From a virus, in UHGV virus genome UHGV-0263856: a DNA stretch of 20,499 nt; one strand, written 5' to 3'. The notes beneath the pieces were generated by a model. It worked only from the letters and a program-made list of their open reading frames with translations, was not told where the DNA came from and searched no databases. The stretch's first letter is position 1, and the number at the start of each line of letters is the position of its first letter. A program made the translations under genes and the position numbers. This document shows, one piece after another, positions 1-5,593 of the stretch.

Positions 1-209
1 AACCAGATCACCAGGACGACTACTTGCGCTGATTATCTGCTGCAGCATTTCTGCCGGTTTTTCGCACGGATGTTTCCCGGGATAGTACTGCACCGGTTTA
101 TGCAGTACTATCCCGGGAAACATCCGTGCGAAAAACCGGCAGAAATGCTGCAGCAGATAATCAGCGCAAGTAGTCGTCCTGGTGATCTGGTTGCGGATTT
201 TTTCATGGG
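1..209. repeat. Palindromic duplication of an internal 3'-region fragment of the methyltransferase gene
   Basis: 1-101 is identical to 809-909 (same orientation). 103-209 is the exact reverse complement of 792-898. Arms 1-90 and 103-192 form a perfect inverted repeat around a 12-nt centre (91-102). The left arm is cut by the window start. The + strand ORF 70-285 only re-reads the methyltransferase C-terminal residues and then diverges. Confidence 0.9.
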
Positions 210-337
210 ATCCGCGATTATCCCATATACCTACTCGCTGATTGCCCCTCCGCACAGGGGGATTCACCATGCCAGTTTCTTTTAACAAACTCCCCGCAAA
301 ACAGACAACTGTCAACCGTCTGAATTGTGAGACATTT

Positions 338-363
338 AAAAAAAAGGCCCGCAAAAGCGAGCC
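338..363 (-). terminator. Intrinsic terminator downstream of the tRNA cluster
   Basis: On the - strand RNA: 7-bp stem GGCUCGC/GCGGGCC (one G-U pair), 4-nt loop, then 8 U (A-tract 338-345 on +). Confidence 0.7.
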
Positions 364-377
364 AGGGAAAATAAGTG

Positions 378-454
378 TGGCGCGTTGTACTGGATTCGAA
401 CCAGTGACCGATTGCTTAGAAGGCAATTGCTCTGTCCGGCTGAGCTAACAACGC
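378..454 (-). tRNA. argO: tRNA-Arg (anticodon UCU)
   Basis: Reverse complement reads GCGTTGT-TA-GCTC...GAGC-ATTGC-CTTCTAA-GCAAT...GGTTCGAATCC...ACAACGC-G-CCA. Cloverleaf is complete with a 7-bp acceptor stem and encoded CCA; anticodon loop CUUCUAA. Symbol is by analogy with the 933W-type ileZ-argN-argO cluster (from memory). Confidence 0.85.
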
Positions 455-467
455 AGGGTACAGATAA

Positions 468-544
468 TGGACCGCCATCGAGGACTCGAACCCCGCGCAA
501 CCAGCTTCGAAGGCTGGCGCTCTATCCTGATGAGCTAATGGCGG
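468..544 (-). tRNA. argN: tRNA-Arg (anticodon UCG)
   Basis: Reverse complement gives a cloverleaf with D-stem GCTC/GAGC, anticodon stem CCAGC/GCTGG, loop CUUCGAA, T-loop GGTTCGAGTCC and encoded CCA. The acceptor stem starts with C1-G72, which is unusual, so the exact 5' end is uncertain by 1 nt. Confidence 0.8.
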
Positions 545-551
545 TATGTGA

Positions 552-627
552 TGGTGGCCCTTGCTGGATTTGAACCAGCGACCTGGCGATTATGAGTCGC
601 TCGCTCTCACCACTGAGCTAAAGGGCC
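552..627 (-). tRNA. ileZ: tRNA-Ile2-like (anticodon CAU, lysidine type; Met not formally excluded)
   Basis: Reverse complement GGCCCTT-TA-GCTCAGTGGTGAGAGC-G-AGCGA-CTCATAA-TCGCC...GGTTCAAATCC...AAGGGCC-A-CCA. Near-identical in layout to E. coli tRNA-Ile2 (ileX) as recalled. Confidence 0.85.
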
Positions 628-676
628 GCGCGCAGAATAATAACGTTACGGAATTAATACTGCAATCTCATCCGTT

Positions 677-1726
677 TCAAACGATTAAATCCTGAACTTC
701 CCTGACTGTCTGCTCAAAACGTCCGGTCTCCAGCTCAACACCAATCGCACGACGCCCCAGTGCCATCGCCGCTTTTACCGTTGAACCCGACCCCATGAAA
801 AAATCCGCAACCAGATCACCAGGACGACTACTTGCGCTGATTATCTGCTGCAGCATTTCTGCCGGTTTTTCGCACGGATGTTTCCCGGGATAGTACTGCA
901 CCGGTTTATACGTCCACACATCGGTGTACGGCACCTGCACCGTCACACCGAAATACCGCCGCAAATTTTTATATTCACTCAGCAGTTCCATATACTGCCG
1001 GTTCAGCTCACTGTATGTGCTGACCAGCTGGTGGTGTGGCTTTTCCAGTTCCCCGCGCTGATGTTTCTCTTCTGCCACCCGGGCAAACAGCGACTGTAAT
1101 TTCAGATAATCGCTTTCGTTCGGTAGCTGCCACTGACTGGCACTGAACCAGTGCGGCACCATGTTTTTCTTTCCTGTGGCATCTGCAATCTGTTTTGCCG
1201 TTATCCCCAGGGCAGCGCGCGCATCACGAAAGTAAGCAATCAGCGGGGCCATCACATGCTGTTTCAGTGCCCTGCCCTTCGCCTCATACCCGGCATCTTT
1301 CGGACGATACGGCCCCTGATAATGTTCCGCGAACAGAATGCGCTCTGTGGCGGGGAAATACGCCCGCAGGCTTTCCTTGTTGCATCCGTTCCAGCGTCCG
1401 GACGGCTTCGCCCAGATAATATGGTTCAGCACACTGAAGCGTTCACGCATCATGATTTCGATATCAGATGCCAGGCGATGACCACAGAACAGGTAAAGAC
1501 TTCCGGCAGGTTTCAGCACCCGCCAGAACTGCGCCAGACACTGGTCCAGCCACTTCAGGTAATCATCGTCGCCCTTCCACTGGTTATCCCAGCCCTCAGG
1601 CTTCACTTTAAAGTACGGCGGGTCCGTAACTATCAGGTCAACAGAATTTTCGGGTAACGACCGGATAAATTCCAGGCAGTCGGCGTTGATTAACTCACAA
1701 CTGGATATTTTTACAGTATTAAGCAT
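677..1726 (-). CDS. DNA N6-adenine methyltransferase (beta-class, DPPY motif IV before FxGxG motif I)
   Basis: 349-aa ORF. N-terminal DLIVTDPPYF (motif IV) and C-terminal DFFMGSGST (motif I), the order typical of PF01555-type N6A/N4C MTases. No adjacent restriction gene, so it looks like an orphan phage MTase. Confidence 0.85.
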   Translation of the reverse strand: MLNTVKISSCELINADCLEFIRSLPENSVDLIVTDPPYFKVKPEGWDNQWKGDDDYLKWLDQCLAQFWRVLKPAGSLYLFCGHRLASDIEIMMRERFSVLNHIIWAKPSGRWNGCNKESLRAYFPATERILFAEHYQGPYRPKDAGYEAKGRALKQHVMAPLIAYFRDARAALGITAKQIADATGKKNMVPHWFSASQWQLPNESDYLKLQSLFARVAEEKHQRGELEKPHHQLVSTYSELNRQYMELLSEYKNLRRYFGVTVQVPYTDVWTYKPVQYYPGKHPCEKPAEMLQQIISASSRPGDLVADFFMGSGSTVKAAMALGRRAIGVELETGRFEQTVREVQDLIV

Positions 1727-1860
1727 GGATCATTAAGCCTGTCTCTGATAGGCTCATTCTGCTTTTGCGCAAAGCAGTGGGCCTGAGGTTTGCTTGTGAA
1801 CCCAACGCATGAGCAGATGGCTGGCAGGTGCCGCTAACACCCACCAGCCGCCCATTACCA

Positions 1861-1889
1861 CAAATAAAAAAGCCTTCACTGAGGAAGGC
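1861..1889 (-). terminator. Intrinsic terminator at the end of the small winged-helix ORF
   Basis: - strand RNA: GCCUUC / loop CUCAGU / GAAGGC followed by UUUUUUAUUUG. The stem overlaps the last codons of ORF 1876-2073. Confidence 0.65.
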
Positions 1890-2073
1890 GTCTGTAACAA
1901 CCGAACTGATAATCTGCCAGACCCGCCATAACAAGCTGGGTCAGTATTAACTGGCAACGTTCGCGTGAAAGGTAAGTATTATGCGCAATTTCCCCGACGG
2001 TCGCCGGTTCGGTGACGCTTAATTCATTAAACACCACTCTGGCAGTTTCGGTCATATCCTGCTGTTTTAGCAT
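1876..2073 (-). CDS. Small winged-helix DNA-binding protein (PapI/FaeA-like fold suspected)
   Basis: 65 aa with a TVGEIAHNTYLSRERCQLILTQLVMAGL helix-turn-helix-like segment. Purine-rich stretch before the ATG; bracketed by terminators on both sides, so it is a stand-alone unit. Confidence 0.45.
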   Translation of the reverse strand: MLKQQDMTETARVVFNELSVTEPATVGEIAHNTYLSRERCQLILTQLVMAGLADYQFGCYRRLPQ

Positions 2074-2191
2074 GCCTTTTCCCTTTTCTGGTTAACGTGA
2101 CATACCAATAACTCTTGTCGAAAAAGCCAGCAAGCTGAAAGACCGATATTAATAACTACCAGCGCGTTTAATGTACCGCACTTCGGGCATC

Positions 2192-2216
2192 AAAAAACCC
2201 GCTCAATGGCGGGTTT
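2192..2216 (-). terminator. Intrinsic terminator after the membrane-protein cassette
   Basis: Stem CCCGC/GCGGG (extendable to 7 bp) with a 6-nt loop, A6 on one side and T3 on the other; on the - strand RNA the hairpin is followed by UUUUUU. Sits 20 nt after the stop of 2236-3033. Confidence 0.7.
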
Positions 2217-2235
2217 AATTAATGAGGTAACAACC

Positions 2236-3033
2236 TTAACTTGTTTGATTCTGTACTTCAGTGGCCTTCTTCCCTTCAATACCTGCCTTGAAAGTCTCGA
2301 ATGTTTCAACATTAAACAGCGAAAAAGATTCGATCTGATCGAAGGGCAACACATGCCTAAACTGATAAACTGACAATGGCTCAGAAGTTAATGTGATACC
2401 CTGACTAAGGTAGTAGTCCACATAATTATGCTCAACACAAAAAGTCAGAGTATCTTTATCTCTGTACCCGGACATAAAAGGGATTAGCACCAATGTGTTA
2501 GTATCTAACTGATTGAAACGTGCCTCATCAATCATCCCCACATAGACCTTGCGAGACTTCAGTGTAACCAACAATAACAATCCACGCTCAACTGATTCAA
2601 GAAGGATATTTTCCACGGCACTATGAGCCGCAATTTCTTCAAAAATAGCCTTGCGCTTTTGTGGGTCTTTATGGTTTTTGGTTGCCTCTGATGCCTTCCC
2701 GATACTTACAATAATAGTGAAAGCTATCGACATAGCAGGGAACATGCTCAACCCAAACACTTGCATTTTGAGAAAGTCATGGGCGAAAGTAAAGGGAGCG
2801 TACCAACCAAACAAGTACGCTGGAATGTTCCAAAGTGACATTCCAGCGTACAGAACAACAACCAATAAGGCAGCGATAAGAATACCACTTATGAGAAACT
2901 CACCACCTTTCAGTGCAACATCAAAGTATGCATTCCAACCGATCGCTTTGCTTTGACGGTATCGTGACGGCAAATGGCAGTTGGTATAGTGATAACCACA
3001 AACTAAAACAATAACAATCAGCGCAGCCCACAT
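2236..3033 (-). CDS. Uncharacterised membrane protein (3 predicted N-terminal TM helices plus ~150-aa soluble C-terminal domain)
   Basis: 265-aa ORF. Hydrophobic segments WAALIVIVLVCGY, FLISGILIAALLVVVLYAGM, VFGLSMFPAMSIAFTIIVSIG. AT-rich by eye relative to the replication genes. No motif I recognise. Confidence 0.7.
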   Translation of the reverse strand: MWAALIVIVLVCGYHYTNCHLPSRYRQSKAIGWNAYFDVALKGGEFLISGILIAALLVVVLYAGMSLWNIPAYLFGWYAPFTFAHDFLKMQVFGLSMFPAMSIAFTIIVSIGKASEATKNHKDPQKRKAIFEEIAAHSAVENILLESVERGLLLLVTLKSRKVYVGMIDEARFNQLDTNTLVLIPFMSGYRDKDTLTFCVEHNYVDYYLSQGITLTSEPLSVYQFRHVLPFDQIESFSLFNVETFETFKAGIEGKKATEVQNQTS

Positions 3034-3039
3034 AGAAGA

Positions 3040-3267
3040 CTAACCCTTCTTCTTAGTACTCAATCCCTTAATATTGGCTGCGAAAGCCTTTTGCACATCA
3101 GCGTTGTTGCGATTCAAAACCATCGAACCATTACTATCAATGAAAAACTTGTCACTTTCATGCTTAGCTTCTTTTCCATCACACATGGAAGCTATATCTG
3201 CAATTTTTTTGATGATCTTCTCAGGTGAGAGGATCGCGCGAGCGGCAAGTGTTAGATATTTCGGCAT
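3040..3267 (-). CDS. Small hypothetical protein, first gene of the Q-proximal cassette
   Basis: GGAGG 6-7 nt upstream of the ATG at 3267 (MPKYLTLAARAIL...). The ORF track extends it to 3324 but that start lacks an SD. Stop is 7 nt before the start of 2236-3033. Confidence 0.55.
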   Translation of the reverse strand: MPKYLTLAARAILSPEKIIKKIADIASMCDGKEAKHESDKFFIDSNGSMVLNRNNADVQKAFAANIKGLSTKKKG

Positions 3268-3446
3268 GCTCCCCTCCGTTAACAGATAAAACACAAAAAG
3301 CACACAAACAAAGTATGCGCACATCCTAACCTATGTGGCTAACAACCACTTTCTTTTATAAGATGAGTGTATTACCTAAAGGGTAACTCGGCAATAGCAG
3401 AATAGTTTTAGCAAGGTAAAATCGATGGTCTTTCGCTCAACTTACG

Positions 3447-3475
3447 ACAAAAGATAGCCCGCTCAGCAGCAGGCT
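3447..3475 (-). terminator. Candidate tR'-like intrinsic terminator downstream of Q
   Basis: - strand RNA: AGCCUGC / UGCUGA / GCGGGCU (one G-U) followed by AUCUUUUG, about 65 nt after the Q stop. The PR' promoter itself could not be pinned down. Confidence 0.35.
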
Positions 3476-3539
3476 TTGTTTAGTTTGCCATCGTGTACAA
3501 AATCAGCAAAATATCAGATTTACACGAAATGTACGCGAT

Positions 3540-4235
3540 TTAATTGACTTTTGCAATAACCCGCCGCGAAAAGGTCGCTTTTTGTTGCGATCTTGTTTTC
3601 ATGGTATAAATCAAAGATTCGTTGTCGAGGTTCTTAAAAATGTCGCACATATCACGCCAGTAGTGCGCATAATTGTGGCTCCAGTTGTCTGACTTAACTC
3701 CACACAGTCTGGCAAGTTCCTGTCGCTGGTAGACGTCACACCCAGTAATCCTCCCCCTGACATCCTGCGCCGCCAGCCAGATTAATTTCTTCAGACGCTC
3801 AAGCGTTTTCCCTGTAATTTTTCTGGTGCCAAAATGCACCTGAAACTTATCCCACGCCCATTTCGCAATGACCACCTGATAATCCCAACTCGGATTTTCA
3901 CTGTATACCCACAGTACCCACGCCTTCTGATGCTCTTCAAGAGACAGAACGGCGCGTCGCCATGATGATGTCGAAAACTCAACCGGACTGACTAGGGCAA
4001 TTGATGAACCTTTCGCCAGCGATTGCTTTCCCGGGATCGGTGGATTATCCAGCGTTACCATTTTTCCAGTGACCTTATCGCGGTACCGGATTTTTTTACG
4101 TCTGTAACGCCCTGTATCAAACATGGCATTCTCCTGCCAGGCTTCAAGCTGACCTTTTGTTGCCCCACTCAAATCGGCGGTGGCGATAATGAGTTGCTCA
4201 CGAACAAACTGTAAATACTGGTTATTCATGCGCAC
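3540..4235 (-). CDS. Late-gene antiterminator Q-like protein
   Basis: 231 aa. Last gene of the early-right operon, immediately after rusA and before the terminator-rich late-region entry, as in lambdoid phages. Assignment rests mainly on position and size. Confidence 0.55.
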   Translation of the reverse strand: MRMNNQYLQFVREQLIIATADLSGATKGQLEAWQENAMFDTGRYRRKKIRYRDKVTGKMVTLDNPPIPGKQSLAKGSSIALVSPVEFSTSSWRRAVLSLEEHQKAWVLWVYSENPSWDYQVVIAKWAWDKFQVHFGTRKITGKTLERLKKLIWLAAQDVRGRITGCDVYQRQELARLCGVKSDNWSHNYAHYWRDMCDIFKNLDNESLIYTMKTRSQQKATFSRRVIAKVN

Positions 4236-4585
4236 TCCAGCTCTGTGATTTTTATCCCCAACCGACCACCAGGAACAGGCAGTCCGCGCACAATATTGAT
4301 TTCATCAAACTGCTCGTCGTCGATAAGCAACCCCGCATGTGTCAGTGCATCCAGTGGTGCTTTCAGAATATTGTCCAGGTCACGACGGCGCTTATCCGGT
4401 GGCTCTGCAATCACCTTTATCGCCAGCCTTCCGGACAGGCTTAATTTCAGCCGCTGCTGGCGAACAATAAGCGCCACTGCCCGGCGATAACGCTCCCCGG
4501 CTTTTGATACAAAATATGTGCTGCCACGGCGTCGCCAGTAAGTGTTCACCGTCGGCGGGTAAGGTAAAACCAAATCTATGAGCAT
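4226..4585 (-). CDS. rusA: RusA Holliday-junction resolvase
   Basis: 119 aa. LPYPPTVNTYWR...DKRRRDLDNILKAPLDAL...GGRL matches the RusA pattern including the catalytic DxRRRDLDN region. Confidence 0.85.
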   Translation of the reverse strand: MLIDLVLPYPPTVNTYWRRRGSTYFVSKAGERYRRAVALIVRQQRLKLSLSGRLAIKVIAEPPDKRRRDLDNILKAPLDALTHAGLLIDDEQFDEINIVRGLPVPGGRLGIKITELECA

Positions 4586-4597
4586 CAGTCACCTCTT

Positions 4598-5593
4598 TTA
4601 CCCAAGCACGCCAGTTGCAAAGGCGTGATCAAGAAAACGAAAAATTAAATCAACCTGAGAACCATGCTTTTCTTCGAACGCCAGAGGATCCGCATGAAGC
4701 TCGTTGTGATGCTCCCGACACAGCGGTAGCGTGAAAATATCGTGAGATTTTGTCCCCATTCCGCCCTGACCATGACCAATCAGGTGATGGGGATCGTCGG
4801 CTGGCTTACCACAACATGCACACGGCTGCGTCTTAACCCAGCGCGTGTACTTTTCATTAACCCAGCGACGACGTTTTGGGCGTAACATAAAAGACTCCGG
4901 CGACTCCGGATCCACTTTCAGCGCCAGCACCTTTTTCGCCTTATCCTGGATGATGCTGGTGGCAGTAACCGAAGGCACAAGGTCACTTTCCCGGGTGACA
5001 GACGGCACAACAGGCTTCGGTAATCTCAGTGCCTTACGGGCTGCACTTTCCGGTAAGGCATCCGCCAGGTCATTACGAATCAGCCACCAGCACAGTTCCG
5101 GCATTGTCACAACGTGACTGTCATCAAAACCAAGATCACGGCGCACAACAGACAACACCCAGCGGGCACAGTTATCCGTTGCCATTGCTTCCAGCCGTTC
5201 CGTGAACTGGTCACGGAGAAGATTGTCACAGTGCCAGCACAGACGGATTGCGCCTGGCGCGTGCCGCATTGTGGTCATGTTCTCGCTGTGCCAGTCGGAA
5301 TGAGGCCACTGACAGCCTTTTTCACGAAGTAACCAGCTCTCAAGGCATTCCACGCCACCAGCACGACGGATCACCGCCTCATGGCGGAACACGGCCCGAA
5401 CGGCAGGATCATCCGCCAGCGGTTGTGATGCTGCCGGAACGGCACCGCTGGCGAAAGATGAATAACGTTCCGGCTCAGGCTCCAGCAGGACACGCCCCTG
5501 CATAAACAGGGGCATCAGCTCTGAACCGGGCCTGAACAATACAATCCCCATACGCGGGGCAATTTCAGGGGTCAGCAGTGCTCTCACGGTCAC
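4598..5593 (-). CDS. DUF968/YdfU-NinG-like protein with C-terminal Cys/His (HNH-like) motif
   Basis: 331 aa. C-terminal CACCGKP...HHLIGHGQGG...CREHHNELH. Sits in the nin-region position between the replication genes and rusA. Confidence 0.45.
   Translation of the reverse strand: MTVRALLTPEIAPRMGIVLFRPGSELMPLFMQGRVLLEPEPERYSSFASGAVPAASQPLADDPAVRAVFRHEAVIRRAGGVECLESWLLREKGCQWPHSDWHSENMTTMRHAPGAIRLCWHCDNLLRDQFTERLEAMATDNCARWVLSVVRRDLGFDDSHVVTMPELCWWLIRNDLADALPESAARKALRLPKPVVPSVTRESDLVPSVTATSIIQDKAKKVLALKVDPESPESFMLRPKRRRWVNEKYTRWVKTQPCACCGKPADDPHHLIGHGQGGMGTKSHDIFTLPLCREHHNELHADPLAFEEKHGSQVDLIFRFLDHAFATGVLG

What the first reader, a model, noticed from the sequence alone, without database searches (positions are those of the whole stretch)
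677..2216. Stand-alone PapI-like winged-helix ORF directly upstream of an orphan DPPY adenine methyltransferase
The 65-aa ORF 1876-2073 is bracketed by two intrinsic terminators and precedes an orphan N6-adenine MTase with no restriction partner. Small PapI/FaeA-type regulators act at methylation-sensitive sites, so the pair could form a methylation-dependent switch or a controller-MTase unit. The fold assignment and the functional link are both speculative.
Basis: inference. Interest (0 to 1): 0.5.

Follow-up and report, generated by a model that had tools for sequence, protein, structure and literature searches.

The report
Phage M.EcoGII methylase regulatory cassette
This stretch is the prophage cassette for M.EcoGII, the already known DNA methylase that marks any adenine, and it carries two conserved, apparently undescribed companions (a 65-residue winged-helix protein and a folded leader RNA in front of the methylase gene) that probably help control this toxic enzyme.

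Summary
A real 65-aa gene (1876-2073, minus strand) lies between two terminator-like hairpins, 149 nt upstream of a DPPY adenine methyltransferase (677-1726) that has no restriction partner.

The methyltransferase is an allele of M.EcoGII (344/350 identical to a machine-read copy). M.EcoGII is the characterised non-specific adenine methylase, silent in lysogens and harmful when expressed constitutively. A site-specific PapI/Dam-type switch is therefore implausible. The small protein is a confident but generic winged helix. It is not a PapI/FaeA member, a controller (C) protein or a Com protein.

The pair is nevertheless a tightly conserved unit. In 24 of 26 species-representative genomes, the winged-helix gene is followed by an M.EcoGII-type gene 137-154 nt downstream (one frameshifted copy aside).

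The spacer is a 143-nt structured leader RNA supported by covariation and absent from Rfam. Its last helix ends 1 nt before the methylase start codon. It occurs in 148 of 176 distinct viral loci, including N15, PY54, phiKO2 and VHML. The winged-helix gene occurs in 115 of these loci and a Mu Com-like zinc ribbon in 12, never both.

Best reading: a Q-dependent late anti-restriction cassette under layered control. The role of the winged-helix protein is unresolved.

The parts
3540..4235 (-). Context: late antiterminator Q. Its late promoter region and first terminator lie in 3325-3539.
   Evidence: Pfam Phage_antiter_Q 1.5e-83. Terminator-like site at 3456-3475. RefSeq annotates the identical region in the same way.
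2190..2216 (-). Intrinsic terminator upstream of the winged-helix gene, after the 265-aa ORF.
   Evidence: 8-bp G+C-rich stem followed by a U run, -17.9 kcal/mol, z = -3.05. An equivalent terminator sits at this position in phiP27, Salmonella and Klebsiella prophages; in Klebsiella it appears to be the first terminator after Q.
2074..2189 (-). Conserved 5' region of the winged-helix gene, with a purine-rich Shine-Dalgarno-like stretch GGGAAAAGG before the ATG.
   Evidence: Conserved between E. coli, phiP27 and Salmonella, and partly in Klebsiella. No sigma-70-like promoter was found on this strand. No significant fold, z = +0.82.
1876..2073 (-). 65-aa winged-helix protein. It belongs to phrog_331 and is a remote relative of N15 gp51.
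   Evidence: dN/dS 0.05-0.14. pLDDT 90.6, H-H-H-strand-strand. Foldseek hits are generic winged helices. phrog_331 at 6e-37. hhalign to the N15 gp51 family: 95.2% probability, E = 2.8e-8.
1862..1889 (-). Hairpin P0 plus U run: a weak intrinsic terminator whose loop holds the stop codon of the winged-helix gene.
   Evidence: A G+C-rich hairpin lies at this position upstream of the leader in most related loci, with compensatory stem changes. A good U run is present only in the E. coli/Stx type and the N15 type.
1721..1863 (-). 143-nt structured leader RNA of the methyltransferase mRNA. Helices in window coordinates: P1 1850-1855/1809-1814; P2 1838-1849/1819-1830; P3 1792-1802/1727-1738 (its 3' strand ends 1 nt before the ATG); P4 1781-1784/1750-1753; P5 1771-1777/1759-1765.
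   Evidence: The spacer is more conserved than the flanking coding sequence. Covariation is documented. Covariance model R1 scores the window at 131.1 bits, E = 1.9e-28. No Rfam family matches this region at E <= 1.
677..1726 (-). Beta-class N6-adenine DNA methyltransferase, an allele of M.EcoGII (non-specific adenine methylase).
   Evidence: 344/350 identical to the machine-read M.EcoGII sequence in Suppl. Table S1 of PMC11551740. Five of the six differences, by my reading, look like reading errors. Pfam N6_N4_Mtase 1.9e-44. Properties of the enzyme are described in PMC5778455.
378..627 (-). Three phage tRNA genes downstream of the methyltransferase: CAT anticodon (annotated tRNA-Ile in RefSeq), Arg-TCG and Arg-TCT.
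   Evidence: ARAGORN, Rfam tRNA, RefSeq annotation. Stx phages carry the same trio between the methylase and stx.
346..363 (-). Intrinsic terminator after the tRNA genes.
   Evidence: Scan. Fold -13.8 kcal/mol, z = -3.92.

Best explanation
The region is the M.EcoGII cassette of a lambdoid prophage. It is a late-operon anti-restriction module consisting of a hairpin/terminator, a 65-aa winged-helix gene, a second hairpin/terminator, a 143-nt structured leader RNA, and the gene for a non-specific adenine methyltransferase.

Shown: the enzyme is M.EcoGII. The winged-helix gene, the leader and the methyltransferase gene are inherited together across Enterobacterales phages. The leader has a conserved five-helix fold.

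From the literature: M.EcoGII methylates any adenine, is silent in the lysogen and slows growth when expressed constitutively.

Inferred mechanism: in the lysogen, transcripts from the late promoter stop at the terminators, so no enzyme is made. After induction, Q-modified RNA polymerase reads through. The leader, whose last helix pairs with the 12 nt directly 5' of the start codon (a region without a normal Shine-Dalgarno sequence), then limits or times translation of the toxic enzyme. The phage DNA is heavily adenine-methylated before packaging and escapes host restriction.

The winged-helix protein is most likely a cassette-specific regulator of methyltransferase expression that acts on the hairpin/leader region. 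That would make it the functional counterpart of Com in the Mu com-mom operon.

My confidence is about 0.9 for the identity of the enzyme and the late-operon logic, about 0.8 for the leader being a real structured cis-regulatory RNA, and about 0.4 for the winged-helix protein being an expression regulator.
For: Enzyme identity:
- 98% identity to M.EcoGII (sequence).
- The M.EcoGII paper names phage 1720a-02 as carrying a very similar enzyme. That phage is the best phage DNA match to this window.

Late-operon position:
- The order Q, variable genes, winged-helix gene, methyltransferase, then tRNAs/stx or lysis genes holds in the window, phiP27, Salmonella and Klebsiella prophages and cdtI.
- Terminators are documented.

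Linkage:
- 24 of 26 species-representative genome loci that encode the winged-helix protein have the methyltransferase gene. The spacer is 137-154 nt, apart from one frameshifted copy. Of the other two loci, one is cut by a contig end and one has a truncated winged-helix gene.
- The winged-helix family is small: 58 representatives at 50% identity among 1.84 billion proteins, all short, with no fusions.

Leader:
- On a plain MAFFT alignment, 93.6% of cells pair, against 29-46% when partners are slid. Ten pairs show changes on both sides, against 5.0 +/- 1.4 in shuffles (0 of 500 shuffles reach the observed value).
- With distant members added, 32 of 37 pairs show compensatory changes.
- The G-U pairs make the fold specific to the mRNA-sense strand.
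- The model finds the leader directly upstream of the methyltransferase gene in N15, PY54, phiKO2, VHML and phiARM81ld. It finds it in 80/80, 52/80 and 71/80 viral loci in three searches, always on the coding strand.
- After removing duplicates, 148 of 176 loci have the leader. It abuts the start codon in 138 of them.

Com analogy:
- In 10 loci a Mu Com-like zinc ribbon (Pfam PF10122, above its threshold) lies between leader and methyltransferase gene.
- 115 loci have the winged-helix gene and 12 have Com; none has both.
- Com-methylase pairs are also annotated in other phages.
Against: - There is no expression or binding data.
- The leader occurs without any winged-helix gene in 25 loci and in VHML, so the protein is not needed for the leader to exist.
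- In N15-type phages the winged-helix homologue gp51 is separated from the leader by the annotated late promoter and terminator. The two genes need not be co-transcribed there.
- Net charge in the family runs from -5 (Proteus type) through -1 (window) to +4 (cdtI type), counted from the sequences. This is unusual for a dedicated nucleic-acid binder.
- Single-sequence thermodynamic folding does not show the start region to be clearly less accessible than with shuffled leaders. Occlusion by P3 therefore rests on covariation alone.
- No promoter for the winged-helix gene was found.
- The M.EcoGII comparison uses a machine-read sequence.
Confidence: 0.7

Rival explanations
1. The winged-helix protein works at the protein level rather than on expression. 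It could be a stoichiometric inhibitor or antidote of the toxic methyltransferase (toxin-antitoxin logic), or a modulator of its activity. It could also be a reader or shield of adenine-methylated DNA that protects hypermethylated phage DNA from methylation-dependent (Type IV) restriction. On this reading the leader RNA regulates translation on its own.
For: - Linkage to the methyltransferase gene is strict, and the family occurs nowhere else.
- Several family members are acidic (-5 in the Proteus type; sequences), which suits protein binding better than nucleic-acid binding.
- The leader exists without the protein in 25 loci.
- The arrangement 'small upstream winged-helix gene plus toxic enzyme' resembles type II toxin-antitoxin operons (general knowledge).
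- Prokaryotic winged-helix domains in DpnI and HhiV4I sense 6mA (abstract of PMC11037411).
Against: - No fusion of the two proteins exists among the 58 family representatives.
- A 150-nt structured spacer is atypical for toxin-antitoxin pairs.
- DpnI-type winged helices were not among the top 50 structural matches.
- Exclusivity with Com, a translational regulator, points to a role in expression.
Confidence: 0.25
2. The winged-helix protein is a DNA-binding transcription factor of the controller type. It binds an operator in the spacer or upstream of its own gene and represses or activates methyltransferase transcription.
For: - The fold is the one used by MarR, IclR and TrmB regulators, and PGAP names some homologues 'TrmB family transcriptional regulator'.
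- In N15-type phages the homologue gp51 lies immediately upstream of the annotated late promoter that drives the methyltransferase gene.
- P2 is also an inverted repeat at the DNA level.
Against: - In the lambdoid arrangement there is no room for a promoter between the gene and the leader (0-40 nt in 73 loci), and none was found.
- The inverted repeats covary in a way that keeps G-U pairs. That indicates an RNA constraint, not a protein-DNA operator.
- The Pfam TrmB score is below threshold (18.3 against 25.6 bits).
- Some members are acidic.
Confidence: 0.12
3. One reading: a PapI/FaeA-like protein and the methyltransferase form a methylation-dependent epigenetic switch that acts at specific methylation-sensitive sites near the genes.
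For: The protein has a similar size and the same general fold class as PapI. It is adjacent to an adenine methyltransferase gene.
Against: - There is no FaeA/PapI Pfam match at E <= 1, and PapI is not among the top 50 structural matches.
- The enzyme is sequence non-specific, so there is no discrete site whose methylation state could be heritable.
- The enzyme is silent in lysogens, so it cannot maintain an epigenetic state.
- The context is a Q-dependent lytic operon in every homologue examined.
Confidence: 0.03
4. The conserved spacer is not a translational control element. It could be a processed small RNA, an RNA that acts on RNA polymerase (antitermination, as with HK022 put), or a ligand-sensing riboswitch. 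On this reading the winged-helix gene is merely a hitch-hiking neighbour.
For: - Many unpaired positions of the leader are invariant. That suggests a tertiary fold or a specific ligand or partner.
- Thermodynamic occlusion of the start codon is not clear-cut.
- The moron region downstream of the late promoter in these prophages is known to encode small RNAs (PMC4104026).
Against: - The 3' end of the motif sits at a fixed position next to the start codon of the following gene: the methyltransferase gene in 138 loci and the Com gene in 10.
- The motif is never found apart from this gene family in the sequence searched.
- The small RNAs described by Tree et al. lie downstream of the moron coding sequence, not here.
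Confidence: 0.15

Closest known systems
M.EcoGII / M.EcoGI of E. coli O104:H4 C227-11 (Murray et al. 2018, PMC5778455)
   Same: 349 aa, beta-class motif order (DPPY, then target recognition domain, then FxGxG), 344/350 identical to the machine-read M.EcoGII sequence, and a prophage location.
   Different: Probably a single real substitution (Q244 here, K in M.EcoGII). The papers I checked do not mention the upstream winged-helix gene or the leader. A four-term full-text search combining EcoGII, prophage, translational and leader found nothing.
Phage Mu com-mom operon (translational activation of a toxic DNA-modification gene by a small upstream-encoded protein that binds an mRNA hairpin; own knowledge)
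   Same: A late-expressed, host-toxic DNA modification enzyme used against restriction. A small (~60-70 aa) gene lies immediately upstream, and a structured mRNA region lies at the start of the enzyme gene. Real Com zinc ribbons occupy the equivalent slot next to M.EcoGII-family genes in Aeromonas/Vibrio-type phages.
   Different: The small protein here is a winged helix, not a zinc ribbon. It lies upstream of the leader and does not overlap the enzyme gene. The enzyme is an adenine N6-methyltransferase, not Mom. No RNA binding has been shown.
N15 gp51-gp52, and the equivalents in PY54 (ORF59/ORF60) and phiKO2 (gp51/gp52)
   Same: gp52 is an M.EcoGII-family methyltransferase (56-62% identical). 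The leader RNA precedes it. gp51 is a remote homologue of the winged-helix protein.
   Different: The annotated late promoter and its terminator lie between gp51 and the leader. Here only a hairpin/terminator separates the two.
Controller (C) proteins of restriction-modification systems
   Same: A small regulatory gene upstream of a methyltransferase gene, needed to time a dangerous enzyme activity.
   Different: C proteins are Xre-type helix-turn-helix proteins that act on C-boxes and control an endonuclease. Here the fold is a winged helix and there is no endonuclease gene.
PapI/FaeA with Dam and Lrp (pap phase variation)
   Same: A small stand-alone winged-helix protein whose biology is connected to adenine methylation.
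   Different: No sequence-family match. The context is a phage late operon. The methyltransferase is non-specific and silent in lysogens.
Type II toxin-antitoxin operons
   Same: A small upstream gene, often a winged-helix or ribbon-helix-helix protein, followed by a gene whose product is harmful to the host.
   Different: A 149-nt structured spacer and terminator-like hairpin lie between the genes. [quoted passage not shown]

Membership tests
M.EcoGII-type beta-class N6-adenine methyltransferases | Motif order: catalytic DPPY at the N-terminus, central target recognition domain, FxGxG SAM-binding motif at the C-terminus; N6_N4_Mtase domain. | tested here: met
   DPPY at residues 35-38 and FMGSG at 310-314 in the translation. 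Pfam PF01555 at 1.9e-44.
M.EcoGII-type beta-class N6-adenine methyltransferases | Near-identity to the characterised enzyme. | tested here: met
   344/350 identical to the machine-read M.EcoGII sequence. For comparison, M.EcoGI and M.EcoGII share 333/349.
M.EcoGII-type beta-class N6-adenine methyltransferases | Methylates adenine in any sequence context; silent in the lysogen. | not testable with these tools
   Known for M.EcoGII itself. Inferred here from about 98% identity.
PapI/FaeA family | Sequence match to Pfam FaeA (PF04703). | tested here: not met
   hmmscan against Pfam-A at E <= 1 lists only TrmB, DUF7342, DprA_WH and HTH_24.
PapI/FaeA family | Small stand-alone winged-helix fold. 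| tested here: met
   pLDDT 90.6, H-H-H-strand-strand. The best structural matches are IclR, MarR and O-methyltransferase winged helices; PapI is not in the top 50.
PapI/FaeA family | Encoded beside a fimbrial operon with GATC/Lrp switch sites. | tested here: not met
   All homologues examined lie in phage late regions between Q (or the late promoter) and the lysis genes.
Controller (C) proteins of restriction-modification systems | Xre-type helix-turn-helix (HTH_3) fold. | tested here: not met
   No HTH_3 match. The predicted fold is a winged helix.
Controller (C) proteins of restriction-modification systems | Linked restriction endonuclease gene. | tested here: not met
   The neighbours have no nuclease or defence match in Pfam, NCBIfam, PHROGs or PADLOC. 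Flanks in other phages are Q, tRNAs and lysis genes.
Mu Com translational regulators | Zn_ribbon_Com (PF10122) with four Cys ligands. | tested here: not met
   No match for the 65-aa protein. By contrast, the ORF between leader and methyltransferase gene in phiARM81ld scores 27.9 bits against a cut-off of 22.9.
TrmB family transcriptional regulators (the name PGAP gives some homologues) | Pfam TrmB (PF01978) score above the gathering threshold. | tested here: not met
   18.3 bits against a cut-off of 25.6, E = 0.0021. This indicates general winged-helix resemblance only.
phrog_331 / N15 gp51-like small winged-helix proteins | Profile match, and position 5' of an M.EcoGII-family gene. | tested here: met
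   phrog_331 at 6.3e-37. hhalign to N15/PY54/phiKO2 gp51: 95.2% probability. Position confirmed.
Known RNA families (Rfam 15) | Covariance-model match of the 1727-1875 spacer. | tested here: not met
   cmscan of window 1-4500 at E <= 1 gives no hit in 1727-1875.
Intrinsic (Rho-independent) terminators | G+C-rich hairpin followed directly by a U run. | tested here: met
   2190-2216 is strong and 1872-1889 is weak. Termination activity itself was not tested.

The most novel reading that the evidence does not exclude
The 143-nt leader would be a new class of cis-regulatory RNA dedicated to non-specific adenine methyltransferases of temperate phages (lambdoid, N15-like, and Vibrio/Aeromonas phages). 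It would be a genuine switch operated by a trans factor or a ligand. The phrog_331/gp51 winged-helix family would be its protein partner, for example an RNA-binding translational regulator that has taken the place of Com. Alternatively, that family would be a reader or shield of 6mA-saturated DNA. Either way, this would be the natural control circuit that lets a phage carry an enzyme able to methylate every adenine in the cell.
Probability: 0.3. Interest if true: 0.75.

Novelty: new variant of a known kind. Interest (0 to 1): 0.55.

Why it matters
M.EcoGII is widely used as a reagent for chromatin footprinting, MadID and RNA-methylation engineering. How phages restrain it is not known. The original paper reports only that it is silent in the lysogen and harmful when expressed constitutively.

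This analysis provides a concrete, testable anatomy for that control:
- Q-dependent read-through of stacked terminators.
- A covariation-supported leader RNA that ends at the start codon.
- A dedicated small winged-helix protein, replaced by Com in some phages.

If confirmed, it would add a widespread phage RNA motif (148 of 176 distinct viral loci). It would also be a second example, built from different parts, of the Mu com-mom strategy for handling a toxic anti-restriction enzyme.

The cassette lies directly upstream of stx in many Stx2 phages. Its terminators and leader are therefore part of the transcript that carries Shiga toxin genes.

Tried and rejected
1. PapI/FaeA membership. Pfam shows no match, a sequence search of the PDB gave only a chance hit to YraP at E = 0.5, and Foldseek against the PDB returned generic winged helices. 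Rejected.

2. A longer ORF. The 94-110-aa versions in databases have unrelated N-termini, and the window has in-frame stops upstream. Rejected.

3. The spacer as coding sequence. Overlapping ORFs exist on both strands, but indels of 1-2 nt between homologues break every frame. Rejected.

4. My first manual fold of the spacer, three independent hairpins including a local hairpin GCUCAUG/CACAAGC. It was replaced by P1 and P3 after RNAalifold and pair counting. The local hairpin has two mismatches in most sequences. It may still be an alternative conformer; this was not tested.

5. The local hairpin GAGCCU...AGGCU seen in the single-sequence fold. Its 3' arm is not conserved. Rejected.

6. A sigma-70 promoter for the winged-helix gene in 2074-2189 or inside its 3' end. 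Only poor hexamers lacking the final T of the -10 element are present, and the scan listed nothing. Left open.

7. Thermodynamic test of start-codon occlusion. The result was inconclusive against shuffled leaders.

8. Automated scoring of a terminator upstream of every leader. It was too crude: the minimum-energy fold picked other pairings. Only inspection by eye is reported.

9. A winged-helix homologue in VHML or phiARM81ld. None was found with a family HMM.

10. The first viral-contig scan with the methyltransferase alignment returned only >=95% identical loci. It was useful for frequency but not for diversity, so scans seeded with VHML and N15 were added.

11. Literature searches found no description of the leader or the small protein.
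Full report
**1. What is in the window**

All genes in 1-4600 that matter here read on the minus strand. In order of transcription they are:
- RusA.
- The late antiterminator Q (3540-4235, Pfam Phage_antiter_Q 1.5e-83).
- An intergenic region with a terminator-like site (3456-3475).
- A 94-aa and a 265-aa ORF of unknown function.
- A hairpin with a U run at 2190-2216.
- The 65-aa ORF (1876-2073).
- A hairpin with a U run at 1872-1889.
- A 149-nt spacer.
- A 349-aa N6_N4 methyltransferase (677-1726).
- Three tRNA genes (378-627) and a terminator (346-363).

Complete E. coli genomes that are 100% identical over 210-3400 annotate the same genes. They continue into a SASA-family esterase, holin and lysozyme. 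This is therefore the moron region at the start of the late operon of a lambdoid prophage. Stx2 phages and phiP27 carry the same module (small ORF, methylase, tRNAs) immediately upstream of stx.

**2. Checking the observation**

The 65-aa ORF is a real gene. Against eleven orthologues, synonymous sites are saturated or nearly so, while dN is 0.08-0.23. dN/dS is 0.05-0.14 where it can be estimated. Longer database versions (94-110 aa, one named 'lipoprotein') have unrelated N-termini and are gene-calling artefacts.

AlphaFold2 on a 30-sequence alignment gives pLDDT 90.6 and the order helix-helix-helix-strand-strand. Foldseek against the PDB returns only winged-helix domains: IclR and MarR regulators, the dimerisation domains of O-methyltransferases, and SelB.

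The upstream hairpin at 2190-2216 is a good terminator (-17.9 kcal/mol, z = -3.05). The downstream one is weak (-8.9 kcal/mol, z = -1.58) but has a clean U run. Neither the neighbouring proteins nor the flanks in other phages include a nuclease.

**3. The methyltransferase is M.EcoGII**

The best phage DNA match to the module is Escherichia phage 1720a-02. Murray et al. name that same phage as carrying an enzyme very similar to M.EcoGII.

The M.EcoGII protein sequence is printed in Supplementary Table S1 of the SUPREM paper. The stored copy was read from a PDF by machine. It is 344/350 identical to the window protein. By my reading, five of the six differences look like reading errors: HH for HI, a scrambled YKPV, and RRR for RR. 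That would leave one real substitution.

According to the literature, M.EcoGII has these properties:
- It is not expressed in the lysogen.
- It slows growth when expressed constitutively.
- It is thought to serve the phage against host restriction.

This removes the basis for a PapI-type model. There is no discrete target site, and no methylation in the lysogen that could hold an epigenetic state.

**4. The small protein is a generic winged helix from a narrow family**

Sequence-family results:
- Pfam gives only sub-threshold winged-helix matches (TrmB at 18.3 bits against a cut-off of 25.6). There is no FaeA/PapI, HTH_3 or Com match.
- NCBIfam gives nothing meaningful.
- PHROGs places the protein in phrog_331, of unknown function.
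- An exhaustive HMMER search of 1.84 billion cluster representatives finds 58 relatives, all 27-114 aa, none fused to another domain.

**5. Linkage to the methyltransferase gene**

A pattern scan of one genome per species found 26 loci, from Escherichia, Salmonella, Klebsiella, Citrobacter, Kluyvera, Buttiauxella, Erwinia and Mixta to Proteus, Providencia and Plesiomonas.

In 24 of them an M.EcoGII-family gene follows the winged-helix gene. The spacer is 137-154 nt, apart from one frameshifted copy. One of the other two loci ends at a contig boundary and one has a truncated winged-helix gene. The association persists down to 41% identity for the winged-helix protein and 58% for the methyltransferase.

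**6. The spacer is the most conserved part and folds**

In a four-way alignment (E. coli, phiP27, Salmonella, Klebsiella), the spacer is more conserved than the flanking codons, even though synonymous sites in the small gene are saturated. Indels exclude a coding explanation.

Twenty-six spacers show concerted changes. Two examples:
- GGCUGGUGGGUG...CACCCGCCAGCC becomes GACUGUAAAAGUG...CACCUUUACAGUC in Proteus.
- AAGC...GCUU becomes GGGC...GCCC in Plesiomonas.

RNAalifold and manual refinement give five helices:
- P1 and P2 form a long 5' hairpin.
- P3 closes a 3' domain that contains P4 and P5.
- The 3' strand of P3 ends 1 nt before the methyltransferase AUG, in a region with no purine-rich Shine-Dalgarno sequence.

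On a plain MAFFT alignment of 25 sequences:
- 93.6% of cells pair, against 29-46% when the partners are slid by 1-3 columns.
- Ten pairs have changes on both sides, against 5.0 +/- 1.4 in shuffles (0 of 500).
- The covariation score is 0.162, against 0.109 for shuffles and at most 0.095 for slid versions.

Frequent G-U pairs make the fold specific to the mRNA-sense strand. No Rfam 15 family matches the region at E <= 1.

**7. The leader is wider than the winged-helix gene**

A covariance model built from these 25 sequences (R1) scores the window at 131 bits. It also finds the motif immediately upstream of the methyltransferase gene in:
- PY54 (55.9 bits).
- VHML (53.1 bits).
- phiKO2 (52.4 bits).
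- N15 (47.6 bits).
- PhiR46_1 (43.9 bits).
- Aeromonas phage phiARM81ld (38.4 bits, E = 1e-6).

With these distant members included, 32 of 37 pairs show compensatory changes. This alignment is fitted to the model and so leans towards the structure, but slid controls stay at 29-45% paired.

Three scans of IMG/VR with methyltransferase queries gave 240 loci. The model hit 80/80, 52/80 and 71/80 of them, always on the coding strand.

After removing duplicates and requiring 600 nt of upstream sequence, 176 distinct loci remain:

| Architecture | Loci |
|---|---|
| Winged-helix gene + leader abutting the start codon | 113 |
| Leader only | 25 |
| Leader, then a Com-like ORF, then the methyltransferase gene | 10 |
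| None of these elements detected | 24 |
| Com-like ORF only | 2 |
| Winged-helix gene only | 2 |

No locus has both a winged-helix gene and Com.

**8. Two informative relatives**

(a) In N15, PY54 and phiKO2, the 75-77-aa protein encoded just upstream (gp51, ORF59) is a remote homologue of the winged-helix protein (hhalign 95.2% probability, E = 2.8e-8). There, the annotated late promoter and its terminator lie between that gene and the leader. In 40 viral loci the distance between the gene and the leader is 140-220 nt, which fits this arrangement. In 73 loci it is 0-40 nt, as in the window.

(b) In phiARM81ld the ORF between leader and methyltransferase gene is a genuine Mu Com zinc ribbon (PF10122, 27.9 bits against a cut-off of 22.9). 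Com-methylase pairs are also annotated in Burkholderia P2-like phages. In Mu, Com activates translation of the toxic mom gene by binding its mRNA (own knowledge).

**9. How it most likely works**

Shown:
- The identity of the enzyme.
- The late-operon position downstream of Q.
- The terminator-like hairpins.
- The conserved, folded leader next to the start codon.
- The co-inheritance of the winged-helix gene.

Inferred:
- In the lysogen, late-promoter transcripts end at the terminators, so the toxic enzyme is not made. This fits the reported silence of the gene.
- After induction, Q-modified polymerase reads through.
- The leader then limits or times translation.
- Phage DNA is hypermethylated before packaging.

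For the winged-helix protein I favour a role in regulating methyltransferase expression at the hairpin/leader region. The reasons are its strict positional linkage and its mutual exclusivity with Com. My confidence in this is only about 0.4, because:
- The leader exists without the protein in 25 loci.
- In N15-type phages the two are separated by a promoter.
- Family members range from net charge -5 to +4 (counted from the sequences).
- Energy-based accessibility of the start region is not clearly lower than with shuffled leaders.

A protein-level role (antidote or modulator of the enzyme, or a reader or shield of 6mA DNA) remains a serious rival. Winged helices in DpnI and HhiV4I sense 6mA.

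**10. Comparison with known systems and novelty**

- The enzyme is already known.
- The small protein fails the membership tests for PapI/FaeA, C proteins, Com and TrmB. It belongs to phrog_331 and the gp51 family, of unknown function.
- The overall logic resembles Mu com-mom but is built from different parts.
- The leader RNA is not in Rfam.
- The papers I read and the searches I ran turned up no description of the leader or of the small protein. That search covers open-access literature only.

I classify the cassette as a new variant of a known kind. The finding as originally worded (a PapI-like methylation switch) is not supported. What is actually there is moderately interesting and directly testable.

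Noticed in passing
window 1-209: The first 209 bases are a perfect palindrome made from part of the methyltransferase gene: a copy of 809-908 followed by its reverse complement, centred near 104. Complete genomes that are 100% identical over 210-3400 have unrelated sequence at this position. This is probably a contig-end assembly artefact or a local rearrangement.
   Followed up: partly
window 137-301 (-): An Rfam STnc100-like match at 45.9 bits, just under the gathering score of 47. It partly overlaps the palindrome and lies in the slot downstream of the tRNAs where Stx phages carry stx. Tree et al. (PMC4104026) place prophage anti-sRNAs in this slot.
   Followed up: no
window 2236-3324 (-): A 265-aa protein that appears to have N-terminal transmembrane segments (phrog_3630) and a 94-aa ORF lie between Q and the cassette. 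Neither has a Pfam, NCBIfam or PADLOC match. phiP27 carries a GIY-YIG nuclease gene in the same slot, so this is a variable moron position.
   Followed up: no
L035 1506-1733 (N15 gp51); L039 992-1225 (PY54 ORF59); L040 1003-1230 (phiKO2 gp51): These uncharacterised proteins of linear-plasmid prophages are remote homologues of the 65-aa winged-helix protein. They sit just upstream of the late promoter that drives the methyltransferase gene.
   Followed up: yes
L036 1698-2044 (Aeromonas phage phiARM81ld) and 10 IMG/VR loci such as L125-L133: In these loci the leader RNA is followed by a Mu Com-like zinc-ribbon ORF and then the methyltransferase gene. The leader abuts the Com start rather than the methyltransferase start.
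   Followed up: yes
window 1698-1716 (-), and the same place in L005, L029, L033 and L039: A small hairpin (ACUGU...ACAGU) within codons 4-10 of the methyltransferase gene is predicted in five of the six leaders folded, but not in N15. It may belong to the regulatory structure.
   Followed up: no
window 1727-1732 (-): The bases directly 5' of the methyltransferase AUG are UGAUC(C/U) in most homologues. There is no purine-rich Shine-Dalgarno sequence. UGAUC is complementary to GAUCA near the 3' end of 16S rRNA (own knowledge), which might serve as an unusual ribosome contact once P3 opens.
   Followed up: no
L005 6427-7089 (Klebsiella prophage): A hicA/hicB toxin-antitoxin pair lies immediately downstream of the methyltransferase gene, on the opposite strand.
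   Followed up: no
window 552-627 (-): ARAGORN calls this tRNA Met (anticodon CAT). RefSeq and the phage records annotate it as tRNA-Ile (ileZ type, presumably lysidine-modified).
   Followed up: no
database entries P0001-P0120: Many deposited versions of the small protein are mis-called. Some have N-terminal extensions, and some have C-terminal fusions or frameshifts, for example with a DUF3927 protein. This suggests frequent recombination breakpoints at the 3' end of the gene.
   Followed up: partly
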